Assembly (NCBI RefSeq): GCF_050920415.1
Contig: NZ_CP169309.1
Length of the DNA stretch: 64,000 nucleotides
From: Escherichia coli
Lineage (GTDB): Bacteria; Pseudomonadota; Gammaproteobacteria; Enterobacterales; Enterobacteriaceae
Strand: one strand, 5' to 3'
Shown: one piece after another, positions 50,484 through 61,440 of the stretch
Layout of the letters: every line of letters starts with the position of its first letter
Position numbering within the stretch: the first letter of the stretch is position 1
Program-made: the position numbers and the translations under genes
The notes under the pieces: model-generated
The model's input: the letters and a program-made list of their open reading frames with translations, nothing else
Told to the model about the DNA's origin: nothing
The model's database searches: none

Positions 50484-50559
<76 letters not shown>

Positions 50560-50612
50560 GTTTAAAAGACATCGGCTTCAGCGGATGTCCGGCTGAAAGG
50601 CCTGAAGAATTT

Positions 50613-50686
50613 GGCGCGTTAACAAAGCGGTTATGTAGCGGATTGCAAATCCGTCTAGTCCGGTTCGACTCCGGAACGCGCCTCCA
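50613..50686 (+). tRNA. cysT: tRNA-Cys (GCA)
   Basis: GGCGCGTTAACAAAGCGG...GATTGCAAATCC...GGTTCGACTCCGGAACGCGCCTCCA. Confidence 0.9.
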
Positions 50687-50698
50687 CTTTCTTCCCGA

Positions 50699-50785
50699 GC
50701 CCGGATGGTGGAATCGGTAGACACAAGGGATTTAAAATCCCTCGGCGTTCGCGCTGTGCGGGTTCAAGTCCCGCTCCGGGTACCA
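50699..50785 (+). tRNA. leuZ: tRNA-Leu (UAA)
   Basis: GCCCGGATGGTGGAATCGGTAGACACAAGGGATTTAAAATCCC...GGGTTCAAGTCCCGCTCCGGGTACCA with long variable arm. Confidence 0.9.
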
Positions 50786-52126: not shown

Positions 52127-52387
52127 TTAATTCTGAGGTAAAGGCAAACTCATCTGATTGTTTCCCCTGTGTGAAGCTGGCAGCTCATGCCACGGGATAC
52201 CTTCTGAAGAGTGAACGCCGGAGGCGTGTTTTGATGTGAATTTATGGAAAGCTTCCAGTGTTGAGAAGCATACGCCGCATTCCAGATTGTTACACTGGTA
52301 ATACTTTTGCCGCACGGTGTTTGAATCATTTTCCGGACGACTGGTGCGGATACGGGCAGATGCGCCACAAAGCGGACAACGGAACAT
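52127..52387 (-). CDS. ogr: P2 Ogr-like zinc-finger late-gene activator
   Basis: 86 aa, MFRCPLCGASARIRTSR...YYQCNNLECGVCF; next to gene D. Confidence 0.7.
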   Translation of the reverse strand: MFRCPLCGASARIRTSRPENDSNTVRQKYYQCNNLECGVCFSTLEAFHKFTSKHASGVHSSEGIPWHELPASHRGNNQMSLPLPQN

Positions 52388-52429: not shown

Positions 52430-53539
52430 TCACTCTGTTTCCGCTATCCATTCCGGGATTTTTGCTTCAAGCTCAAGCTGCGTGGTAAAGCCGCTGTTAT
52501 CAATGGTGTGCTCGGCTTTTGCAATAATCCAGTCCTGATTGTCGATGTCACTTTTGAAGCCTGTCACCGTGCCATGCATTTCGGGATAGAGTTCTGCACG
52601 TCCACGCGCCAGCGTGATGGAGAATGATGCGGCTCCGCGTTGTAGTTGCTGCCACTTTGCCGCCGCTGCGCGTCTTGCTGCCTGCTCGTTCTGATAAGTC
52701 TTGCGTAACACAAACACATTGCCTTCCGCGCCTTCCATATAATCACCTTCACGGCTGCTGCTTTTCTCCTTTTTGGGTTTTGGCGGTTTACGGCGTTTTA
52801 CGCTGACTTTTTTCTTTTTCCCGTAATTAAGATCAAGCCAGTAGGCGCGTACCCCCGTATACGCCTCGCGGTCAGCAATACGGAACTGATGGCGATCGCC
52901 GCTGCTGCGTGTAATGGCGAACGAGGGCAACGGCTGGCCCTGTGCGTTCACGCCACCACCTGGCATGATGAATAACAGATTGCCGCTTTTTACCGTGGTG
53001 ATTGCGCCCAGCATTTCCGCCATGCGCGTAAGGAAGGACATGTCGCTTTCTTCGGTCTGGTCGGCGTGGTCGATTTCAATATCCATCAGCATTTCGCTGA
53101 TTTGCGGTTTCAGGCCGTATCGGTGAGCAATTGCAGACACCACGCGTTCAACGGTCACATCATGCCAGGATACTTCGCGCTTGACGTTAAATTCATCCCG
53201 AAAATCTGCGCTTCTGGCTGAAATGGTCAGTCTGTCGGGCGGTCCTTCATGAGCAATTTCATCAACAATGTAAGTGCCTTTTTCTGTCAGCGGTTCTCCT
53301 TTCCAGCCAATGAGAACCGTCAGGCGCGCGCCCCGTGGCGGTAGCTGCAACTGACCATCTGCATCATCCAGCGTGATGGTGAGCTGGTCCGCCTCAAATC
53401 CCCGGTTGTCGGTCAGTGACAGGCTCATCAGGCGCTCTGCCACGCCTGACAGCGTTTTACCCTCCGCGAGAATATCAAAATCCGGCATTTTCACGGGGTC
53501 TGTGCCCTGACTGAGCAATTGCATGGTGGTGTCGGTCAT
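52430..53539 (-). CDS. P2 gpD-like tail protein (phage late control D family)
   Basis: ORF 52430..53671; start taken at MTDTTMQLLSQGTDPVKMPDF; overall resemblance to P2 gpD as recalled. Confidence 0.75.
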   Translation of the reverse strand: MTDTTMQLLSQGTDPVKMPDFDILAEGKTLSGVAERLMSLSLTDNRGFEADQLTITLDDADGQLQLPPRGARLTVLIGWKGEPLTEKGTYIVDEIAHEGPPDRLTISARSADFRDEFNVKREVSWHDVTVERVVSAIAHRYGLKPQISEMLMDIEIDHADQTEESDMSFLTRMAEMLGAITTVKSGNLLFIMPGGGVNAQGQPLPSFAITRSSGDRHQFRIADREAYTGVRAYWLDLNYGKKKKVSVKRRKPPKPKKEKSSSREGDYMEGAEGNVFVLRKTYQNEQAARRAAAAKWQQLQRGAASFSITLARGRAELYPEMHGTVTGFKSDIDNQDWIIAKAEHTIDNSGFTTQLELEAKIPEWIAETE

Positions 53540-53696
53540 CTGTTCCCTCCCTGTGCGGCATGGTCGCATGTGCGTGCGGAGGGGGTTACTGCTTTTTGTT
53601 GTCGCCGTGGCGGGAGAACGGCGCAGGGGTGAGATTACGCGCGTGGTGGGTGATGATTGTTGCCGAATCATTTAACGGATACAAGGGGCTGAAGCT

Positions 53697-54881
53697 ATGA
53701 GTGAAACTCGTTTTCATGGTGCCCGTGTTACGGAAAATACCGACCTGGTAACAGCGATTAACGATGTTGATTCCAGCGTTATCGGTATCGTGGCAACGGC
53801 GGATGATGCGGACGCGGAGCTGTTCCCGCTGAACAAGCCCACATTGCTGACCCGCGTCAATGACGTGCTGGGAAAATGCGGAACAACGGGGACGCTTTAT
53901 CGTGCGCTTAAGGCCATCGCAGACCAGGTGAGCACAAAGGTGATCGTCGTTCGCGTGGCTGAACACAAAGAAGAAGACGGAAAAACGCAGGATCAACTGG
54001 TTATCGGTGGTTCTGAATCTGACGGCAGCTATACGGGGATGTATGCGCTGCTTGTTGCAGAGCAGGATGAAAGCATCGGATACCGTCCGCGTATTCTGGC
54101 CGCGCCGGAGCTGGACACGGAGGCGGTGACAAAATCCTTGTGCGTGATTGCGGGTAAACTGCGCGCGTTTGTGTATGCCACATGTCATGGTTGTAACACG
54201 ATGGCTGAGGCGATTACCTACCGCCAGAAATTCAACGAACGTGAGGTGATGCTCTTATGGCCTGACTTCATCGCCTACAACCCGAAAAGTGGCAAAAACG
54301 AAACGTTCCCCGCGCCTGCTTATGCGTGCGGCCTTCGTGCGTACATTGACCATGAGCAGGGCTGGCACAAATCGCTGTCCAACGTTCCGGTTAAAAATGT
54401 GCTGGGAATGTCCAGGCATGTGTTCTGGTCGTTGCAGGCCGAAGACAGTGATGCCAACAGCCTCAACAACAAAGAAATCACGACCATTATTCGTCGCAAC
54501 GGGTTCCGCTTCTGGGGCAACCGCACACCGGAAACGAACGCCTACATCTTTGAGGTGTATACCCGAACCGCACAGGTACTGGCTGATTCAATTGCGGAAG
54601 CGCAGTTTGAAACCATCGACAGTCCACTGACGCCTGCGAACGTGAAGGATGTTATCAGTGCCATCAGGGCAAAACTGGATTCACTGGTTACTGCCGGGAA
54701 ACTGATTGGCGCGTCGTGCTGGTATGACGTGGTGGATAACAGCACCACGGATTTACGTCAGGGGCGTGTGCGTATTCGCTACAAATATACGCCTGTTCCT
54801 CCGCTGGAAGATATGGAGCTTTACCAGACGTTTACTGATGAATACTTTGATCCCGCATTTGCGGTGTTGGGAGGTGTCTGA
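53697..54881 (+). CDS. P2 FI-like contractile tail sheath protein
   Basis: 394 aa; segments match P2 FI as recalled (ADDADAELFPLNKP, KLRAFVYA, DHEQGWHKSLSNV, RRNGFRFWGNRT, YTPVPPLE). Confidence 0.9.
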   Translation: MSETRFHGARVTENTDLVTAINDVDSSVIGIVATADDADAELFPLNKPTLLTRVNDVLGKCGTTGTLYRALKAIADQVSTKVIVVRVAEHKEEDGKTQDQLVIGGSESDGSYTGMYALLVAEQDESIGYRPRILAAPELDTEAVTKSLCVIAGKLRAFVYATCHGCNTMAEAITYRQKFNEREVMLLWPDFIAYNPKSGKNETFPAPAYACGLRAYIDHEQGWHKSLSNVPVKNVLGMSRHVFWSLQAEDSDANSLNNKEITTIIRRNGFRFWGNRTPETNAYIFEVYTRTAQVLADSIAEAQFETIDSPLTPANVKDVISAIRAKLDSLVTAGKLIGASCWYDVVDNSTTDLRQGRVRIRYKYTPVPPLEDMELYQTFTDEYFDPAFAVLGGV

Positions 54882-55393
54882 TGGCTGTACCAAAACATCT
54901 TCGCTTTTTTACGCTGTTTGTGAATGGTGAAAACGAAGTGGGTAAGGTGACGTCCGTCACTCCACCTAAACTGACGCGCAAAACTGAAAGCTATCGTGGC
55001 GGTGGCATGATGGGGGCGGTGAGTATCGACCTCGGTCTTGATGATTCTGCGCTTGATGCGAGTTTTGTCATGGGGGGCGCAGTTCGTGAGCTGTTCCTTA
55101 AATATGGCGGCACGATTGACAGCACGTTGCTGCGTTTTGCGGGTGAATACTACACCGATGCAGAAAGTGATCTGTATGAAATCGAGATGCGCGGGCGTGT
55201 GACGGAAATTGATATGGGGGAAGCCAAACAGGGCGAAGCCACATCACACACTTACGCTGTCAAAAACACCTACTACAAGCTGAGCGTTAACGATCGTCCG
55301 CTGTGGGAAATCGACCTGCTGAACCACATCTACCGGAAGGACGGCAAGGACATCGTGCCTGATCGCATCCGTTCCGCGCTTGGGCTTGGCTGA
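54881..55393 (+). CDS. P2 FII-like tail tube protein
   Basis: 170 aa (TPPKLTRKTESYRGGGMMGA..., ...RSALGLG). Confidence 0.85.
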   Translation: MAVPKHLRFFTLFVNGENEVGKVTSVTPPKLTRKTESYRGGGMMGAVSIDLGLDDSALDASFVMGGAVRELFLKYGGTIDSTLLRFAGEYYTDAESDLYEIEMRGRVTEIDMGEAKQGEATSHTYAVKNTYYKLSVNDRPLWEIDLLNHIYRKDGKDIVPDRIRSALGLG

Positions 55394-55449
55394 TAAGTAA
55401 TATGCAGGCGGCGCAGTGCGTCGCCTCTGACTGAAAAAGGAGACAACTG

Positions 55450-55824
55450 ATGCAAAACATCAATACTGAAACCCGGAATAACGCCGTGGCGGATGATGTG
55501 ACGGCAGGTGAGGATATGGCTGTCGAACGTGGCGTAAAACTGGCCCGACCAATTGAGCGCGGTGGCGAAAAAATCACGTATGTGGAAATTACCGGGGCTA
55601 TTGAGCAGGCTGGATCTCTGCGTGGTCTGTCGCTGTCTGATGTGCTGAATCTGAAAGCGGATACCATGTTCACGCTGTTGCCTCGCGTGACCTCGCCACG
55701 ACTGGATGAAGTGATGATTAAAAAAATGTCGTCACGCGATTTTATTCAGTTGTGCGCTGTGGCTGTAAATTTTATGAGCGAGCCAGACTCTGGCGCGAAG
55801 AGCGTGCAGGAGACGGCAGCGTAA
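55450..55824 (+). CDS. P2 gpE-like tail assembly chaperone
   Basis: 124 aa immediately upstream of the tape-measure gene; overlapped by a -1 frame ORF. Confidence 0.7.
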   Translation: MQNINTETRNNAVADDVTAGEDMAVERGVKLARPIERGGEKITYVEITGAIEQAGSLRGLSLSDVLNLKADTMFTLLPRVTSPRLDEVMIKKMSSRDFIQLCAVAVNFMSEPDSGAKSVQETAA

Positions 55825-55988
55825 TCACCCTGGTGTGCTTTGAGCACATCGAAGATCTGGTGGCGGATATTGCCGCCATTTTTAACTGGTCGCCCGCCGA
55901 AATCTTCATGATGACGCCCGGCGAAGTGGTTAGCTGGCGTGAGCGGGCGGCACTTCGCAGCGGGAATGCAGACAATGAAGACTCTTGA
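55722..55988 (+). other. gpE' extension frame: predicted -1 frameshift product E+E'
   Basis: The -1 frame is open from 55722 to 55988; candidate slippery sites are an A7 run at 55720..55726 and the heptamer A AAT TTT at 55767..55773. Confidence 0.5.
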
Positions 55989-58776
55989 TATCCGGGTCGC
56001 TTTCAGCGCCGTTGACAGACTGACCCGGCCTGCCGAAAACGCCCGCCGCCTGATGGGGCAGTTTGGTGACTCCATCCAGCGAACGCAGGGGGCGATCAAA
56101 AATCTCGAGCGTCAGGCGCGTTCATTTGAGCGCGCCCGTGACGCTGTCAGTAAAGCGGATGCGAGCATCGTGAAAGCACGACGCCAGCTTAACGCCCTTA
56201 ATCAGTTACAACGCACGGGTACAGTGCTCAGCGAAAAACAACAAAAGCTGATGCAGCAGTTAAGCACCCGGCTTGAACGCCTGAATGAATCGCGCACACG
56301 GGAAATTCAGAAAATGCGGGAGCTTGGCGGAGAGCTGAAACGCCACGGCATTTCCCTGACAGGCAGCGATAACACCATCCAGCAGGCCATCAGACGCACC
56401 GAACAGTACAACAACCAGCTTGAACGCGAACGGCAGACGCTTGCGCGTGTAACGCGGGCGCGTGAGCGGTATTCGCGCGCGCAGGAAACTGCTGGAAAAC
56501 TGAAAACAGGTGGTGCGCTGGCAATTGGTGCGGCAGCGGCTGGCGGCTATGCTGCCGGGCGTTTTTTGCAGCCTGCGATCGGGTTCGGGAAAGAGATGTC
56601 CCGCGTTCAGGCACTGACGCGAATCGACCAGAACAGCCCACAGTTTAAGGCGCTGCGTGAGCAGGCGTTAAAACTTGGCTCTGAAACGCAGTTCACCGCA
56701 GGCGATGCCGCCAGTGGACAGGCATTTCTTGCAATGGCTGGCTTCACACCGCAGGCCATTCAGGCTGCGCTTCCGGGCGTGCTGAGCATGGCAACGGCTG
56801 GCGGCATGGATCTCGGCGAGACGGCGGATATTGGCTCAAATATCCTGACGCAGTTCGGCCTTTCTGCTGACCAGATGGACCGGGTTGGTGACACACTCAC
56901 CGCAGCGTTTACCCGTACCAACACTGACCTTCGCGCACTGGGCGAAACCATGAAATATGCAGGTCCGGTGGCGGGTAAGCTGGGAATATCGCTGGAGCAG
57001 GCCGCAGCGATGGCGGGCGTGCTGGCGAATATGGGTATCAGAGGGAGTGATGCCGGGACGGCAATGCGTGCCAGCCTGGCTCGTCTGGCATCACCGCCAA
57101 AGGCAGCAGCAGAGGCGCTGAAAGAGCTTGGTGTGGCAGTTTCTGACGCGAACGGCAAAATGCGCCCGATGGAGGATGTGCTGGCCGACCTTTATAAAGC
57201 CACCCGCAAATACGGGGAAGTTGACCGGGTATCCTTCTTTAAGGACATCGCCGGGGAAGAGGCTTTCACATCATTTATGGCCCTCGTTGATGCAGCGGGT
57301 GACGGGTCCTTACCCAAACTGAGAAAAGAACTTGAAGGCGCGCGCGGTGAGGCTGAACGCACAGCAAAGGTTATGGCCAACAACCTTGACGGCGATCTGA
57401 AATCACTCGGCAGTGCATGGGAAGGGTTGCGCATCCGCATTGCAGATCTGATTGACGGTCCGCTGCGTTCTGTCACGCAGTGGCTCACGCGTGTGGTATC
57501 AAAGGTGACGGCGCTGGCGCAGGCCCATCCCGCACTGACGCGCCAGCTACTGATAGCAGGCGGTGCGTTGCTGGCAATGACTGCAACGGTTGGCTCGTTG
57601 TCGCTGGCTATTGGTGTGCTTGCTGGTCCGCTGGCAAAACTGCGTCTTGGTTTTTCCCTCCTGACCGGATCAATGAATGCTGTCAGGGTCCTGCCAGCAC
57701 TATGGGGAATGGTGACGGGTTCCGTTTCTTTGCTGGGAGGTGCTATCGGGGCGCTGTTCAGTCCGGTTGGTCTTATCGTGGCTGCGCTTGCCGGAGCTGC
57801 CATTCTTATCTGGAAATATTGGGATCCCATCAGGGCATTTTTTGCCGGGGTGTTCGGCGGGATTATGGAAAGGCTGACCCCGTTGCGCGAAACCTTTGAA
57901 CGGTTTGGCCCTGTTTTTGACGTAATCGGAAGCGGGATCAGCCAGGTGTTTAACTGGTTTAAATCGCTGCTGTCACCGATGGAGTCCAGCAAGGAAACGC
58001 TGGATAAATGTACCAGTGCTGGCGAGATATTCGGTAACGTTCTTGGCGGTGCGTTACAACTTGTTCTGACACCTGCAAAAATGTTGCTGGATACGCTGGC
58101 GTGGATACTTGAAAAGCTCGGTGTGCTTCCGGATGAAGCGGAAAGGGCGCGCAAGAAAATCGAAGACGCACAGCGTGCGGCCATTCTTCAGGACAAGGTT
58201 GCCTTGCTTCAGGGGGACCTGGCGAAAATCAATCCGCCGAAGCCTGTGGAAAATGGCACCGGAGGTGATAAACCCAAAGACAACAAACCGCTCACAGACA
58301 GCAATACCGGTACGCTACGCAGACTCAGCAAGATTGCTGATAACACAGGTAAGCTGGTTGATGAGACGAAAAAACGCATTGGCCCTGGCGATATTGTCTT
58401 TAAGAACCTGCCCCGCGCACTTGCTGTTCGTGGGGAGTGGCAGGAGCGGAAGATTGCGCAGGTCAGTAAGCCTGCTTCCGCAATCAACATCACACCTGTG
58501 GTCCCGACTCCTCTGCCTCCGGCGCTGGTCCCTGTTGTTGCGGCCAGCTCCCGCCCGGTGGCGGAGGCCATACGATCGCCAGTGGCATCAGTTCCTGCAA
58601 CTTCCCGTAACCGGGAGCCTGTTGTCTCCGGATTTGGCGGTGAAATTCATGTTCATCTGCATAACGTTGTTACGCAGAATCCCCGCGAACTGGCGAAACT
58701 GGTCGGTGAAATGGTCAGGGCAGAATTGGAACGACGCGACCGTGCCGGACGTGGCAGTTTTTACGATAAAGATTGA
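55939..58776 (+). CDS. phage tail tape-measure protein (gpT-like); start uncertain (alternative Met at 55975)
   Basis: 945 aa; Ala/Gly-rich and coiled-coil segments; between E/E' and U. Confidence 0.85.
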   Translation: MSGRHFAAGMQTMKTLDIRVAFSAVDRLTRPAENARRLMGQFGDSIQRTQGAIKNLERQARSFERARDAVSKADASIVKARRQLNALNQLQRTGTVLSEKQQKLMQQLSTRLERLNESRTREIQKMRELGGELKRHGISLTGSDNTIQQAIRRTEQYNNQLERERQTLARVTRARERYSRAQETAGKLKTGGALAIGAAAAGGYAAGRFLQPAIGFGKEMSRVQALTRIDQNSPQFKALREQALKLGSETQFTAGDAASGQAFLAMAGFTPQAIQAALPGVLSMATAGGMDLGETADIGSNILTQFGLSADQMDRVGDTLTAAFTRTNTDLRALGETMKYAGPVAGKLGISLEQAAAMAGVLANMGIRGSDAGTAMRASLARLASPPKAAAEALKELGVAVSDANGKMRPMEDVLADLYKATRKYGEVDRVSFFKDIAGEEAFTSFMALVDAAGDGSLPKLRKELEGARGEAERTAKVMANNLDGDLKSLGSAWEGLRIRIADLIDGPLRSVTQWLTRVVSKVTALAQAHPALTRQLLIAGGALLAMTATVGSLSLAIGVLAGPLAKLRLGFSLLTGSMNAVRVLPALWGMVTGSVSLLGGAIGALFSPVGLIVAALAGAAILIWKYWDPIRAFFAGVFGGIMERLTPLRETFERFGPVFDVIGSGISQVFNWFKSLLSPMESSKETLDKCTSAGEIFGNVLGGALQLVLTPAKMLLDTLAWILEKLGVLPDEAERARKKIEDAQRAAILQDKVALLQGDLAKINPPKPVENGTGGDKPKDNKPLTDSNTGTLRRLSKIADNTGKLVDETKKRIGPGDIVFKNLPRALAVRGEWQERKIAQVSKPASAINITPVVPTPLPPALVPVVAASSRPVAEAIRSPVASVPATSRNREPVVSGFGGEIHVHLHNVVTQNPRELAKLVGEMVRAELERRDRAGRGSFYDKD

Positions 58777-58782
58777 GGAGTC

Positions 58783-59277
58783 ATGGCCATGATGATGATC
58801 TACGGCATGTTTGTTTTTGAGCTGCGCACATTGCCGCATCAGCAGTTACAGCAAAACAAAAGCTGGCGGCATGTGAAAAATGAACGCGTTAACCGTTCAG
58901 CAAGCTGGCAGTATATCGGGGCAGGCGATGATCGCATCGTTCTTTCTGGTGTGCTTTATCCTGAAATTACAGGTGGCGAAGTATCGCTTTCGTTGCTGAC
59001 CACGCAGGCATATACAGGACGCCCCTGGCCTCTGATTGATGGTGTCGGGCAGATTTACGGCATGTATGTCCTGACCGGAACGAATACGACCCGCTCCGAG
59101 TTTGATCGCTACGGTAAGGCGAAAAAGATAGAATTTTCACTGACCCTTGAACGCTGTGATGAGGATTTGCGGGAGCGCCTGCAATCCTCATCGTTCAGCG
59201 ATATGCTGTCCGGCTTCAAAGATAAGGTCACATCATCCCTTAACAGCGCGGCCAGCTCCGTTAAAGGGCTGTTTTGA
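58783..59277 (+). CDS. P2 gpU-like tail protein
   Basis: 164 aa (MAMMMIYGMFVFELRTLPHQQLQQNKSWRH...PLIDGVGQIYG). Confidence 0.8.
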   Translation: MAMMMIYGMFVFELRTLPHQQLQQNKSWRHVKNERVNRSASWQYIGAGDDRIVLSGVLYPEITGGEVSLSLLTTQAYTGRPWPLIDGVGQIYGMYVLTGTNTTRSEFDRYGKAKKIEFSLTLERCDEDLRERLQSSSFSDMLSGFKDKVTSSLNSAASSVKGLF

Positions 59278-59284
59278 TTAACGC

Positions 59285-59314
59285 AAAACCGCTAATGGTC
59301 AGATTAGCGGTTTT
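59285..59314. terminator. bidirectional hairpin terminator between gpU and the convergent invertase gene
   Basis: Perfect 12-bp inverted repeat AAAACCGCTAAT-GGTCAG-ATTAGCGGTTTT overlapping the invertase stop codon. Confidence 0.55.
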
Positions 59315-59903
59315 CATTTTCCTGAGTCTGCCTGGTTGTTTCTTCAGCCTGTATATCGCCTACAGGGTGATAACGATAAATCGTCGATATGCCGATGTCG
59401 TAAATGATCGCCAGTTGTTTCCTGTCATGACCGTTTTTAATCAGCCTCGCTATTTGCTCGTGTTGTTCTTTTGTCAACTTCGGGCGACGTCCGCCAATGC
59501 GCCCCCGTGCGCGCGCTGCCGCCAGCCCGGCCAGTGTACGCTCTACAATTAATTCACGTTCCATTTCGGCTAAAGCCCCCATGACGTGAAAAAAGAAACG
59601 CCCCATGGGTGTTGATGTGTCAATGCTGTCCGTCAGACTACGGAAATTAACACCTTTTTCCCGCAATTCCTCAATAAGCGTGATCAGGTGTTTCATACTT
59701 CTGCCCAGTCTGTCCAGCTTCCAGACAACCAGCGTATCTCCTTCTGATAGCGTTCTGATCAGTTTTTTCAATCCCGGTCTGGCTGATTTCGTTCCGCTGA
59801 TTTTATCTTCAAAAATCAGTTCACATCCTGCGCACTCCAGCGCGTTACGCTGCAATTCTGTATTCTGGTCATTTGTTGATACGCGGACATAGCCAATAAG
59901 CAT
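59304..59903 (-). CDS. serine site-specific DNA invertase (Gin/Pin/Hin family)
   Basis: 199 aa, MLIGYVRVSTNDQNTELQRNAL... (catalytic Ser region), C-terminal HTH. Confidence 0.9.
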   Translation of the reverse strand: MLIGYVRVSTNDQNTELQRNALECAGCELIFEDKISGTKSARPGLKKLIRTLSEGDTLVVWKLDRLGRSMKHLITLIEELREKGVNFRSLTDSIDTSTPMGRFFFHVMGALAEMERELIVERTLAGLAAARARGRIGGRRPKLTKEQHEQIARLIKNGHDRKQLAIIYDIGISTIYRYHPVGDIQAEETTRQTQENENR

Positions 59904-59960
59904 GATGGATCCCCTGAATAAAAACCGGGGATGATGCCAGTTAGCCGTAATCTCTGCATT

Positions 59961-59986
59961 TTCTTAAACGTTGGTTTGGGAGAAGG
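59961..59986. repeat. invertase crossover site (left), inside the alternative tail-fibre 3' segment; approximate
   Basis: TTCTTAAACGTTGGTTTGGGAGAAGG; a related copy lies in inverted orientation within gene H. Confidence 0.5.
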
Positions 59987-60440
59987 TGCTCCAGCTATTG
60001 GCGTTCCGTTCTTCTGGCCGTCCGCCGCAATGCCAGATACCGTAATCGAAAGCTGGTCCGGCATGGTGTTTTTGAAGTTCAACGGCGCGAAATTCTCTGC
60101 CACTGATTACCCTGTGCTGGCGAAAGTGTTTCCTTCGCTGGTATTACCTGAAGCCCGCGGTGATTTCATTCGTATCTGGGATGATGGCCGTGGTGTTGAT
60201 AGTGGCCGTGCGTTACTTTCCGCGCAATCAGACGATTTCAAAACGCACGAGCATAAAATTTTAGGGCTAAATGGAAGTGGCAGTAATGTAGTGTTTGGCA
60301 CCGTTTCGAATGCTTCTCCATTATATACCAGCGGCGTTAGTCAGCCGGGTGGAAGTGCTTTGCCCGCTTTTCAAAACCCAGGCGGTACTGAAACGCGTCC
60401 CCGTAACATCGCATTCAACTTTTTAGTAAGGGCTAAATAA
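59961..60440 (+). other. alternative tail-fibre C-terminal segment (Hv'), currently not fused to H
   Basis: Part of ORF 59931..60440; no separate start expected; would be joined to the constant part of H after inversion. Confidence 0.55.
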
Positions 60441-61033
60441 TGAAACCTGTTTTTGATGAAAATGGACTGGCTACAGTGCCGGGTGATATGCGTTGTTTTT
60501 ATTATGATGCAGTAACGTATGAATATACGGGCTGGTCTGATGAATATATTAATACTGGTATAAGTATGCCCGCCTGTTCCACTGGTATTGACCCTGGCGA
60601 AAACATTCCGGGAAAAGTGGCTGTATTTACAGGTAAGGGATGGAGCCATGAAGAGGACCATCGCAATGAGACTGTTTACTCAATCGAAAATGGCGCAGCT
60701 GTTACAGTGGATTATATCGGTGCCATCAAAAACGGTTATGTCACGCTTTCACCGTTAACGCCATATGATAAATGGGATGGTGAGAAATGGGTGACAGATA
60801 CTGAGGCACAACACGGTGCCGCAGTAGAAGCGGCAGAAGCACAGCGTCAGCCACTGATTGATGCTGCAATGGCTTCCATCAGTCTGATTCAGCTGAAATT
60901 ACAGGCCGGGCGGAAGCTGACGCAGGCAGAAACCACCCGGCTTAACGCCGTGCTTGATTACATTGACGCGGTGACGGCAACAGATACGAGCACCGCTCCG
61001 GATGTCATCTGGCCTGAACTGCCGGAGGCGTAG
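60440..61033 (+). CDS. tail fibre assembly protein (alternative copy, tfa')
   Basis: 197 aa; C-terminal region ...TTRLNAVLDYIDAVTATDTSTAPDVIWPELP. Confidence 0.75.
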   Translation: MKPVFDENGLATVPGDMRCFYYDAVTYEYTGWSDEYINTGISMPACSTGIDPGENIPGKVAVFTGKGWSHEEDHRNETVYSIENGAAVTVDYIGAIKNGYVTLSPLTPYDKWDGEKWVTDTEAQHGAAVEAAEAQRQPLIDAAMASISLIQLKLQAGRKLTQAETTRLNAVLDYIDAVTATDTSTAPDVIWPELPEA

Positions 61034-61439
61034 GCCATTCAATATCTGGAGCACTGGAGGTATCAACCAGTTCCAGTGCGTCCAGATAATCCAGCCACAA
61101 ATTATATTGCGCCAGTTCCTCACCTTTCAGACGACCAATAGCCGCTTTACCAGGCCATTGCTTGGTATTCATATATTCGTTGGACTGATTAATCAATTGC
61201 TGTTTTTTCAATTCGGCTGCGGCAATCTGTTCCTCATGTGTTGGTGGTGGAATTTCAGACCATGCAGGAAAACCATTTTCCTCAGCGATACGGATTTTTC
61301 CTTTCGGCGGTAATCCGGAAAACTCAATATACACCTGCTCATCAACTTCAACAGCATCATCTGGCCATGAATTTACATTGATGTAGTCATCCTTAAGCGC
61401 AGGATTCACAAAAATATTTAAAGATGGACTAAAAAACAC
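61005..61439 (-). CDS. tail fibre assembly protein (active orientation)
   Basis: 144 aa; C-terminal ...NLWLDYLDALELVDTSSAPDIEWPTPP; convergent with and overlapping tfa'. Confidence 0.75.
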   Translation of the reverse strand: MFFSPSLNIFVNPALKDDYINVNSWPDDAVEVDEQVYIEFSGLPPKGKIRIAEENGFPAWSEIPPPTHEEQIAAAELKKQQLINQSNEYMNTKQWPGKAAIGRLKGEELAQYNLWLDYLDALELVDTSSAPDIEWPTPPAVQAR

Positions 61440-61440
61440 A

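What the first reader, a model, noticed from the sequence alone, without database searches (positions are those of the whole stretch)
55720..55988. Candidate programmed -1 frameshift in the tail chaperone gene (E/E')
The -1 frame is open from 55722 to 55988 and overlaps the 3' half of gpE, as in P2 and lambda-type tail chaperones. Two candidate slip sites are present: an A7 run at 55720..55726 and a classical X XXY YYZ heptamer A AAT TTT at 55767..55773.
Basis: partly seen in the sequence, partly recalled or inferred. Interest (0 to 1): 0.35.

Follow-up and report, generated by a model that had tools for sequence, protein, structure and literature searches.

The report
P2-type tail chaperone frameshift, variant site
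This is the well-known programmed -1 ribosomal frameshift that lets P2-like phages make two tail-assembly chaperones (E and E+E') from one start codon, found here in a common E. coli prophage that slips on A AAT TTT instead of P2's T TTT TTG.

Summary
Gene E (55450-55824) lies between the tail tube and tape-measure genes. The -1 frame is open from 55722 to 55988, and its translation matches Pfam PF06528 "Phage P2 GpE" (E=2.9e-12) and phrog_1756 (E=8e-38).

The fused E+E' aligns colinearly with P2 E+E' (E=2e-28). P2's slip codon F85 aligns with window F108 (55771-55773).

Across 86 related loci, amino-acid conservation switches from frame 0 to frame -1 at this Phe codon. Every locus has an in-phase X XXY YYZ heptamer there.

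The window does not keep the P2 heptamer: T TTT TTG has become T TTT ATG. It is the only in-phase heptamer in the whole E ORF.

This allele occurs in about 598 of 5426 complete E. coli genomes and in the plaque-forming phage PhiSM. The E' extension is intact in 78 of 78 true-homologue IMG/VR contigs.

The A7 run (55720-55726) is out of phase, and relatives have a -1-frame stop just downstream of it, so I reject it as the conserved slip site.

I found no significant or conserved downstream stimulatory structure.

Verdict: a real but ordinary feature, a new member of a known kind with a small slip-site twist. Databases annotate E' as a separate 51-aa gene.

The parts
55450..55824 (+). Gene E, the tail assembly chaperone (124 aa, frame 0)
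   Evidence: ORF. phrog_103 'tail protein' E=2.6e-36. Pfam PF10109 Phage_TAC_7 scores 21.3 bits, below the 25-bit cutoff. It lies between FII and T.
55767..55773 (+). Proposed slip heptamer A AAT TTT (P site AAT Asn107, A site TTT Phe108)
   Evidence: It is the only in-phase X XXY YYZ in the E ORF. It overlaps the position of P2's T TTT TTG by 4 nt. It is conserved in all 18 window-clade loci of the E'-seeded sample. A_AAU_UUU is frameshift-prone in E. coli reporters: 0.07 / 0.36 / 11.4 % (PMC4066793 supplement).
55770..55776 (+). Degenerate remnant of the P2-type heptamer: T TTT ATG instead of T TTT TTG (T to A at 55774, Leu to Met in E)
   Evidence: Comparison with P2, P88, Yersinia and Enterobacter phages.
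55773..55988 (+). E' extension in the -1 frame (71 codons plus TGA stop). The predicted fusion E(1-108)+E' is 179 aa, with junction ...AVAVNF|YERARLW...
   Evidence: Translation. phrog_1756 E=7.8e-38 from the first residue after the slip. BLASTP of the fusion against P2 E+E' gives E=2e-28 and is colinear across the junction. The -1 frame is conserved from this codon onwards.
55860..55967 (+). Conserved E' core domain (Pfam PF06528 Phage_P2_GpE)
   Evidence: residues 47-82 of the 55722-55988 translation, E=2.9e-12, 46.3 bits against a cutoff of 23.
55782..55817 (+). Irregular 13-bp hairpin 8 nt downstream of the heptamer. Possible stimulator, not supported statistically.
   Evidence: MFE -19 kcal/mol for 55774-55833 but z=-0.46 against shuffles. 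It is present in the window clade only. It is absent in the P88 clade and in 2 window-type contigs that have P88-like downstream sequence.
55720..55726 (+). A7 run (Lys-Lys codons AAA AAA + A), rejected as the conserved slip site
   Evidence: Wrong phase. The preceding -1 codon is TAA. In relatives the -1 frame is closed downstream of it.
55833..55988 (+). Database-style stand-alone 'GpE family phage tail protein' CDS (GTG start, 51 aa). I regard it as an annotation artefact of the unannotated frameshift.
   Evidence: PGAP annotation of the 99.8 % identical E. coli locus. The conserved -1-frame motif W-x-x-E-R-x-G-D-G lies upstream of this GTG.
55975..58776 (+). Tape measure gene T. Its start overlaps the end of E', as in P2.
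   Evidence: PF10145 E=1.2e-58. PGAP start is equivalent to 55975. An alternative ATG lies at 55966.
54881..55393 (+). Tail tube gene FII, immediately upstream of E
   Evidence: PF04985 E=7.8e-46.

Best explanation
Gene E and the overlapping -1 frame E' are the tail-assembly chaperone pair of a P2-like (Xuanwuvirus/P88-type) prophage.

Most ribosomes translate E (124 aa) and stop at 55822-55824. A minority slip back one nucleotide when Asn-tRNA and Phe-tRNA occupy AAU UUU of the heptamer A AAU UUU (55767-55773). They re-pair on AAA UUU, read UAU (55773-55775) next, and continue to the TGA at 55986-55988. The product is a 179-aa E+E' fusion (...AVAVNF-YERARLW...).

By analogy with lambda gpG/gpGT and P2 E/E+E', the shared N-terminal part would bind the tape-measure protein T. 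The E' domain would recruit tail tube subunits, and the slip frequency would set the E : E+E' ratio.

What is shown:
- the gene order
- homology of both frames to P2 E and E'
- the exact codon where conservation changes frame
- the presence of the heptamer

What is inferred:
- that slippage occurs on this heptamer rather than by a P-site-only slip on the same U-run
- its efficiency
- the chaperone function
For: Gene order:
- The order is FI-FII-E-E'-T-U, each with strong Pfam hits.

Homology of the -1 frame:
- It matches PF06528 (E=2.9e-12) and phrog_1756 (E=7.8e-38, starting at the first post-slip residue).
- The modelled fusion aligns colinearly with P2 E+E' (33 % identity, E=2e-28). Phe108 is an invariant alignment column that coincides with P2's slip codon.

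Conservation switches frame at the Phe codon (14 clade representatives):
- In the 16 codons before it, frame 0 has mean identity 0.45 and frame -1 has 0.25. Eight of 14 representatives have -1-frame stops there.
- In the 16 codons after it, frame 0 has 0.39 and frame -1 has 0.57. None of 14 has a stop.

Heptamers in 86 loci seeded on the E' domain:
- Every locus has at least one in-phase canonical heptamer at that codon.
- 23 have TTTTTTG/A only, 29 have it plus an upstream XXXTTTT, 18 have AAATTTT only (the window clade), and 16 have CCCTTTC only.

The allele is common and works in a live phage:
- It is in about 598 of 5426 complete E. coli genomes.
- 78 of 78 true-homologue IMG/VR contigs have an intact 71-aa extension.
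- The plaque-forming temperate phage PhiSM carries it (PMC6456863).

Literature:
- In E. coli reporters A_AAU_UUU shifts at least as well as U_UUU_UUG once a stimulator is present: 0.355 vs 0.247 % with IS911 and 11.4 vs 0.77 % with the IS3 pseudoknot (PMC4066793 supplement).
- P2 precedent: slip at TTTTTTG, E 91 aa, E+E' 142 aa (PMC3091744).
- gpG/gpGT mechanism (PMC5009743).
Against: - There is no direct evidence of the fusion protein for this phage.
- Without a stimulator, A_AAU_UUU gave only 0.07 % in reporters, close to background.
- I found no significant or conserved downstream structure (z = -0.46 and -0.73) and no Rfam element.
- No SD-like sequence is visible 6-17 nt upstream (55750-55761, TTGTGCGCTGTG).
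- E matches its Pfam family only below the gathering threshold (21.3 < 25 bits), and NCBIfam gave no hit.
- All public annotations I saw treat E' as a separate gene or omit it.
Confidence: 0.85

Rival explanations
1. The site and product are the same but the mechanics differ. A P-site-only slip of Phe-tRNA on the U UUU tetramer (55770-55773) happens while the A site waits for Met-tRNA on AUG. This replaces simultaneous two-tRNA slippage on A AAU UUU.
For: U_UU.U is among the more slippery tetramers in E. coli (hierarchy A_AA.G >> U_UU.C > U_UU.U, PMC4066793). The product (N-F-Y...) is identical, so the comparative data cannot separate the two.
Against: In every lineage lacking TTTTTTR, the third base of the preceding codon completes a full heptamer: GTA AAT TTT in 18/18 and GTC CCT TTC in 16/16. 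Lineages that keep TTTTTTG tolerate GTT AAT, ACG CCT and GAT there. That pattern is expected only if P-site re-pairing of the upstream tRNA matters.
Confidence: 0.08
2. E' is made on its own, by initiation at GTG 55833 (the 51-aa 'GpE family phage tail protein' of PGAP) or at GTG 55752. No frameshift is involved.
For: This is how RefSeq/PGAP and several phage records annotate it. An in-frame GTG exists at both positions.
Against: - The -1 frame is conserved as protein from the Phe codon onwards, including W-x-x-E-R-x-G-D-G, which lies upstream of 55833.
- No Shine-Dalgarno sequence sits at a usable distance from either GTG. The nearest AGGAG is at 55810-55814, with an 18-nt gap to 55833.
- The GTG is not conserved in the Klebsiella, Enterobacter or P2 clades.
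- In P2 the E' frame is translated as an extension of E (PMC3091744; Christie et al. 2002, from my own knowledge).
Confidence: 0.04
3. The shift happens at the A7 run (55720-55726), either by ribosomal slippage on A AAA or by transcriptional slippage adding one A. The fusion would be ...MIKK-NVVTRFYSVVRCGCKFYER...
For: In the window clade the -1 frame is open from 55722, directly after the run. A-runs are slippery.
Against: - It is out of phase (AAA AAA A), and the P-site tRNA would re-pair on UAA.
- The same run is present in 101/101 P88-type contigs, but there the -1 frame is closed 18 nt downstream. It is also closed in 3/78 window-type contigs.
- The product would replace 16 conserved E residues (SSRDFIQLCAVAVNF) with unconserved sequence.
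- Seven As is short for efficient transcriptional slippage (my own knowledge).
Confidence: 0.02
4. The T to A change destroyed the P2 slip site, frameshifting is lost, and this prophage is tail-defective.
For: The canonical T TTT TTG is absent. A_AAU_UUU alone is weak without a stimulator.
Against: The allele is carried by about 598 complete E. coli genomes. In 78/78 IMG/VR homologues the 71-aa E' frame is still intact. The plaque-forming phage PhiSM has exactly this site.
Confidence: 0.03

Closest known systems
Bacteriophage P2 E / E+E' programmed -1 frameshift (Christie et al. 2002; annotated in NC_001895 at 19685)
   Same: - Same gene position between FII and T, with E' overlapping the start of T.
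- Homologous E and E' sequences (fusion against fusion E=2e-28; PF06528).
- Slip at the homologous Phe codon.
- No evident downstream stimulatory structure (PMC3091744).
   Different: - The slip heptamer is A AAT TTT, one codon upstream of P2's T TTT TTG, which is degenerate here (TTTTATG).
- E is longer (124 vs 91 aa), with an N-terminal extension.
- The E/E' overlap after the slip is 17 codons against 8.
- The fusion is 179 vs 142 aa, with a 10-residue insertion carrying W-x-x-ER-x-GDG.
- The D gene lies on the opposite strand, upstream of FI, rather than after U.
Escherichia phage P88 and other Xuanwuvirus/Gemsvirus prophages
   Same: Same operon layout and 83-85 % nucleotide identity over E/E'. 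Same Val-Asn-Phe context (GTA AAT TTT).
   Different: P88-type alleles keep both heptamers (A AAT TTT TTG). The window allele keeps only the upstream one. In P88-type alleles the -1 frame is closed 31 nt upstream of the Phe codon, against 49 nt in the window type.
Klebsiella Reipivirus-type prophages (e.g. ST16-OXA48phi5.4)
   Same: They too have lost T TTT TTG (TTTCTTG) and retain only an upstream overlapping heptamer, C CCT TTC, at the same codon. This is a parallel case of slip-site shift.
   Different: A different heptamer (Pro-Phe). About 50 % protein identity.
Lambda gpG / gpGT tail assembly chaperones (Levin et al. 1993; Xu, Hendrix & Duda 2004, 2013, 2014)
   Same: [quoted passage not shown]
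   Different: No Pfam family other than PF10109 and PF06528 matched either frame. Lambda's heptamer is G GGA AAG (my own knowledge). This is a contractile-tail phage.

Membership tests
P2-type E / E+E' frameshifted tail assembly chaperone pair | The gene lies between the tail tube gene (FII) and the tape-measure gene (T). | tested here: met
   FII 54881-55393 (PF04985, 7.8e-46), E 55450-55824, T 55975-58776 (PF10145, 1.2e-58)..
P2-type E / E+E' frameshifted tail assembly chaperone pair | The upstream ORF is homologous to gpE (Pfam PF10109 Phage_TAC_7). | tested here: inconclusive
   Pfam gives 21.3 bits, below the 25-bit gathering cutoff, and NCBIfam gives no hit. However, phrog_103 gives E=2.6e-36, and BLASTP against P2 E+E' covers the E part. 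Homology is clear; formal Pfam membership is not reached.
P2-type E / E+E' frameshifted tail assembly chaperone pair | A second ORF in the -1 frame overlaps the 3' end of E, is homologous to P2 E' (PF06528), and ends inside the start of T. | tested here: met
   The -1 ORF is 55722-55988. PF06528 gives E=2.9e-12, 46.3 bits against a cutoff of 23. It overlaps the T start by 14 nt.
P2-type E / E+E' frameshifted tail assembly chaperone pair | An in-phase slippery heptamer sits at the conserved Phe codon where coding conservation changes frame. | tested here: met
   A AAT TTT at 55767-55773. A heptamer is present in 86/86 relatives.
P2-type E / E+E' frameshifted tail assembly chaperone pair | The slip sequence is T TTT TTG, described as conserved among P2-like phages (PMC3091744). 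| tested here: not met
   The window has T TTT ATG at 55770-55776. 34 of 86 sampled loci also lack TTTTTTR.
P2-type E / E+E' frameshifted tail assembly chaperone pair | A frameshift fusion protein is actually made (about 10 % in P2) and is essential for tail assembly. | not testable with these tools
   This needs a reporter fusion, western blot, mass spectrometry or genetics. The only indirect support is that plaque-forming PhiSM carries the same site.
Stimulated -1 PRF signals (dnaX / IS3 / IS911 type: heptamer plus downstream hairpin or pseudoknot and/or upstream SD) | A conserved downstream RNA structure lies 5-9 nt after the heptamer. | tested here: not met
   Fold z-scores range from -0.73 to +1.19 in five clades. 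The window-clade hairpin 55782-55817 is not shared with P88. Rfam found nothing.

The most novel reading that the evidence does not exclude
This may be slip-site turnover inside a conserved recoding signal. The ancestral P2 heptamer T TTT TTG has been knocked out in this very common E. coli prophage lineage (T to A at 55774). Frameshifting would have been taken over by the overlapping heptamer A AAU UUU one codon upstream.

The same shift happened independently in a Klebsiella lineage (C CCU UUC). Lineages with both heptamers (A AAT TTT TTG, C CCT TTT TTG) would be the intermediates.

A lineage-specific hairpin (55782-55817) might compensate as a stimulator. I give that part alone only about 0.2.
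Probability: 0.6. Interest if true: 0.35.

Novelty: new member of a known kind. Interest (0 to 1): 0.22.

Why it matters
The practical consequence is for annotation. In RefSeq/PGAP and phage records of this prophage family, E' is called as a stand-alone 51-aa "GpE family" gene or left out. About a quarter of complete E. coli genomes carry one of the two alleles. The real product is most likely a 179-aa frameshift fusion.

For recoding biology, it offers a small natural series of alleles: TTTTTTG only, both heptamers, or the upstream heptamer only. This series could be used to ask which heptamer is used in P2-like phages. It could also help explain how about 10 % frameshifting is reached without an obvious stimulator.

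It changes nothing about the known mechanism of tail assembly chaperones.

Tried and rejected
- The A7 run as slip site is rejected: wrong phase, and not usable in relatives.
- Downstream stimulatory structure: I folded 60- and 100-nt windows after the heptamer in the window and 60-nt windows in P88, P2, Klebsiella and Enterobacter relatives. None differs from shuffles. The window-clade hairpin is not conserved.
- An Rfam scan of 55300-56200 at E<=1 gave only a chance snoRNA hit.
- No SD-like sequence is visible upstream of the heptamer by eye.
- NCBIfam gave no hits for E, E' or the fusion.
- A PDB sequence search with the E+E' profile found no solved relative.
- The primary P2 paper (Christie 2002, PMC135442) is not held. 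P2 facts are taken from PMC3091744, the RefSeq annotation and my own knowledge.
- Literature searches for an AAATTTT slip site in phage tail genes or in Xuanwuvirus found nothing relevant.
- The exact 16-mer scans of IMG/VR also returned about 16 chance matches in unrelated contigs. I filtered these out by requiring the E tail motif.
- I first suspected that D on the opposite strand meant a rearrangement. It is the normal layout of P88-like phages.
- A search for long inverted repeats around the invertase found none.

Full report
**What is in the sequence**

Window 53697-59277 (+) encodes a P2-type contractile-tail operon:
- FI sheath, 53697-54881
- FII tube, 54881-55393 (PF04985, 7.8e-46)
- E, 55450-55824
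- T tape measure, about 55975-58776 (PF10145, 1.2e-58)
- U, 58783-59277 (PF06995)

E is read with codon starts congruent to 1 mod 3. The frame one base behind it has a TAA at 55719-55721. It is then open for 88 codons to TGA 55986-55988 and overlaps the last 103 nt of E.

**Where the window comes from**

The region is 98 % identical to Xuanwuvirus P884B11 and to Citrobacter phage Shae_phiSM. It is 83-85 % identical to phage P88 and its relatives.

Homologues occur in 1373 of 5426 complete E. coli genomes. The prophage starts near 51.7 kb, next to a tRNA Gly-Cys-Leu cluster.

In the 99.8 % identical RefSeq locus, PGAP annotates E as "phage tail protein". It annotates a separate 51-aa "GpE family phage tail protein" starting at the GTG equivalent to 55833. 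No frameshift is annotated. Other phage records do the same or omit E'.

**Is the -1 frame a real coding extension?**

Yes.
- Its translation matches Pfam PF06528 "Phage P2 GpE" (E=2.9e-12).
- It matches phrog_1756 (E=7.8e-38). That match begins at the first residue after the proposed slip, not at the annotated GTG.
- E itself matches phrog_103 (2.6e-36). It matches PF10109 only weakly (21.3 bits, cutoff 25).
- A fusion modelled as E(1-108) plus the -1 frame from 55773 is 179 aa. It aligns in one colinear block with P2 E+E' (33 % identity, E=2e-28).
- The same modelling rule applied to P2 reproduces the published length of 142 aa (PMC3091744).

**Locating the slip site**

P2's annotated site is GGT TTT TTG (Gly-Phe-Leu) at NC_001895:19685.

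In the multiple alignment of fusions from six phages, the Phe is an invariant column, F108 in the window. Its codon is 55771-55773.

I collected 80 further loci from IMG/VR using only patterns in the E' domain, so the sample is not biased towards any slip sequence. I analysed them together with the reference phages.

Conservation in 14 clade representatives:

| Region | Frame 0 (E) mean identity | Frame -1 mean identity | Representatives with a -1 stop |
|---|---|---|---|
| 16 codons before the Phe codon | 0.45 | 0.25 | 8 of 14 |
| 16 codons after the Phe codon | 0.39 | 0.57 | 0 of 14 |

The conserved -1-frame motif W-x-x-E-R-x-G-D-G lies between the Phe codon and the annotated GTG. The coding signal therefore changes frame exactly at this codon.

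**The twist**

The window does not have P2's heptamer. At the homologous position it reads GTA AAT TTT ATG (Val-Asn-Phe-Met). T TTT TTG has become T TTT ATG.

What remains is the overlapping heptamer A AAT TTT, one codon upstream. It is the only in-phase X XXY YYZ in the whole E ORF.

Heptamers at the Phe codon across the 86 loci:

| Heptamers present | Loci | Note |
|---|---|---|
| TTTTTTG or TTTTTTA only | 23 | includes P2 |
| AAATTTT plus TTTTTTG | 20 | P88 type |
| CCCTTTT plus TTTTTTG | 9 | |
| AAATTTT only | 18 | window clade |
| CCCTTTC only | 16 | Klebsiella Reipivirus clade |
| none | 0 | |

In both clades that lack TTTTTTR, the preceding Val codon always ends in the base that completes the heptamer (GTA AAT, GTC CCT). 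Clades that keep TTTTTTG tolerate GTT AAT, ACG CCT, GCA CCT and GAT there.

This pattern argues that at least one full heptamer is under selection. It also argues that the upstream heptamer has taken over in the window lineage.

**Is the variant functional?**

- The exact window-type 16-mer occurs in 94 IMG/VR contigs. Of these, 78 are true E homologues, and all 78 keep an intact 71-aa E' extension.
- An 86-bp probe across the site finds the window-type allele in 598 complete E. coli genomes. The P88-type allele is in 820.
- Citrobacter phage Shae_phiSM carries exactly this site. PhiSM is described as a fully functional, plaque-forming, lysogenising temperate phage related to P88 (PMC6456863). 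That the GenBank record is the phage of that paper is my inference from name and host.

Published -1 frameshifting in E. coli reporters (PMC4066793 supplement):

| Motif | No stimulator (%) | IS911 stimulators (%) | IS3 pseudoknot (%) |
|---|---|---|---|
| A_AAU_UUU | 0.070 | 0.355 | 11.4 |
| U_UUU_UUG | 0.118 | 0.247 | 0.77 |
| C_CCU_UUC | 0.19 | 1.4 | 23 |

The authors single out R_RR.U_UU.Y as frameshift-prone despite its mixed composition. So losing TTTTTTG need not reduce frameshifting.

**The A7 run**

It is read as AAA AAA A (Lys-Lys), which is not the X XXY YYZ phase. The P-site tRNA would have to re-pair on the UAA at 55719-55721.

A shift there would replace 16 conserved residues of E with unconserved sequence.

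The same run exists in 101/101 P88-type contigs, but there a TGA closes the -1 frame 18 nt downstream. This is also true in 3/78 window-type contigs. The open -1 frame from 55722 to 55766 is therefore a lineage-specific accident, and I reject the A7 run as the conserved slip site.

**Stimulators**

- Folding 60 and 100 nt after the heptamer gives energies no better than dinucleotide shuffles (z = -0.46 and -0.73).
- The same holds for P88, P2, Klebsiella and Enterobacter relatives (z from -0.01 to +1.19).
- The window clade can form an irregular 13-bp hairpin at 55782-55817, 8 nt after the heptamer. Five of its pairs are broken in P88 (my own base-by-base comparison of the consensus sequences). 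Two window-type contigs with P88-like downstream sequence lack it.
- Rfam has nothing.
- No SD-like motif lies 6-17 nt upstream.
- Absence of a structure was also reported for P2 and Burkholderia P2-like phages (PMC3091744).

**Mechanism and comparison**

This is the P2 E/E+E' system. It works like lambda gpG/gpGT. The common part binds the tape-measure protein, the frameshift extension recruits tube subunits, and the slip frequency fixes their ratio (PMC5009743). That function is inferred here, not shown.

The window meets the defining features of gene position, homology of both frames, and an in-phase heptamer at the homologous codon. It does not meet the feature "slip sequence TTTTTTG".

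Production of the fusion cannot be tested with these tools.

**Verdict**

The second candidate site is right and the first is wrong.

It is a new member of a known kind. It has a modest point of interest (slip-site shift, with a parallel in a Klebsiella lineage) and a practical annotation consequence. Interest is low to moderate.

Noticed in passing
window 52430-53671 (-) and 52127-52387 (-): The baseplate hub / late control gene D (PF05954) and an Ogr/Delta zinc-finger gene (PF04606) lie upstream of FI on the opposite strand. In P2, D follows U and ogr follows D. The same layout is annotated in the near-identical E. coli prophage (ogr, D, then FI-U), and P88's FI-to-T stretch matches it, so it is the normal arrangement of this group and not a local rearrangement.
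   Followed up: partly
window 59304-61440: A serine DNA invertase (PF00239 + HTH_7, 59304-59903, minus strand) sits next to plus-strand ORFs at 59931-60440 (no Pfam hit) and 60440-61033 (tail fibre assembly, PF02413). These face the minus-strand tail fibre gene H (61441-62922). This looks like a Mu G / P1 C-type invertible host-range segment. No inverted repeat of 20 nt or more was found with a 12-nt seed, so the crossover sites were not located.
   Followed up: partly
window 50484-50785: A tRNA-Gly(gcc), tRNA-Cys(gca), tRNA-Leu(taa) cluster lies about 0.9 kb from where similarity to P88-like phages begins (about 51.7 kb). It may mark the prophage attachment site. att repeats were not searched for.
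   Followed up: no
L026 / L097 (IMGVR_UViG_2534681835_000034) and one other contig: Two contigs combine the window-type TTTTATG site with P88-type flanking sequence (E tail ...NFMSGADSGGKNEQATEA). This is either recombination within the 86-bp region or an independent T to A change. These contigs lack the window-clade hairpin.
   Followed up: partly
L005, L054-L069 (Klebsiella Reipivirus-type contigs): In this clade the -1 frame is open for 250-265 nt upstream of the E stop, far longer than needed. The slip region reads GTC CCT TTC TTG, so the clade has independently lost TTTTTTG while keeping C CCT TTC.
   Followed up: partly
PMC6456863 versus OR565851.1: The paper describing PhiSM reports siphovirus-like non-contractile tails by TEM. 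The genome deposited under that name encodes a P2-type tube and tape measure; its FI-position ORF is labelled 'late control gene D protein' in that record, and I assume it is the sheath homologue from the gene position, as in P88. I did not resolve this inconsistency.
   Followed up: no
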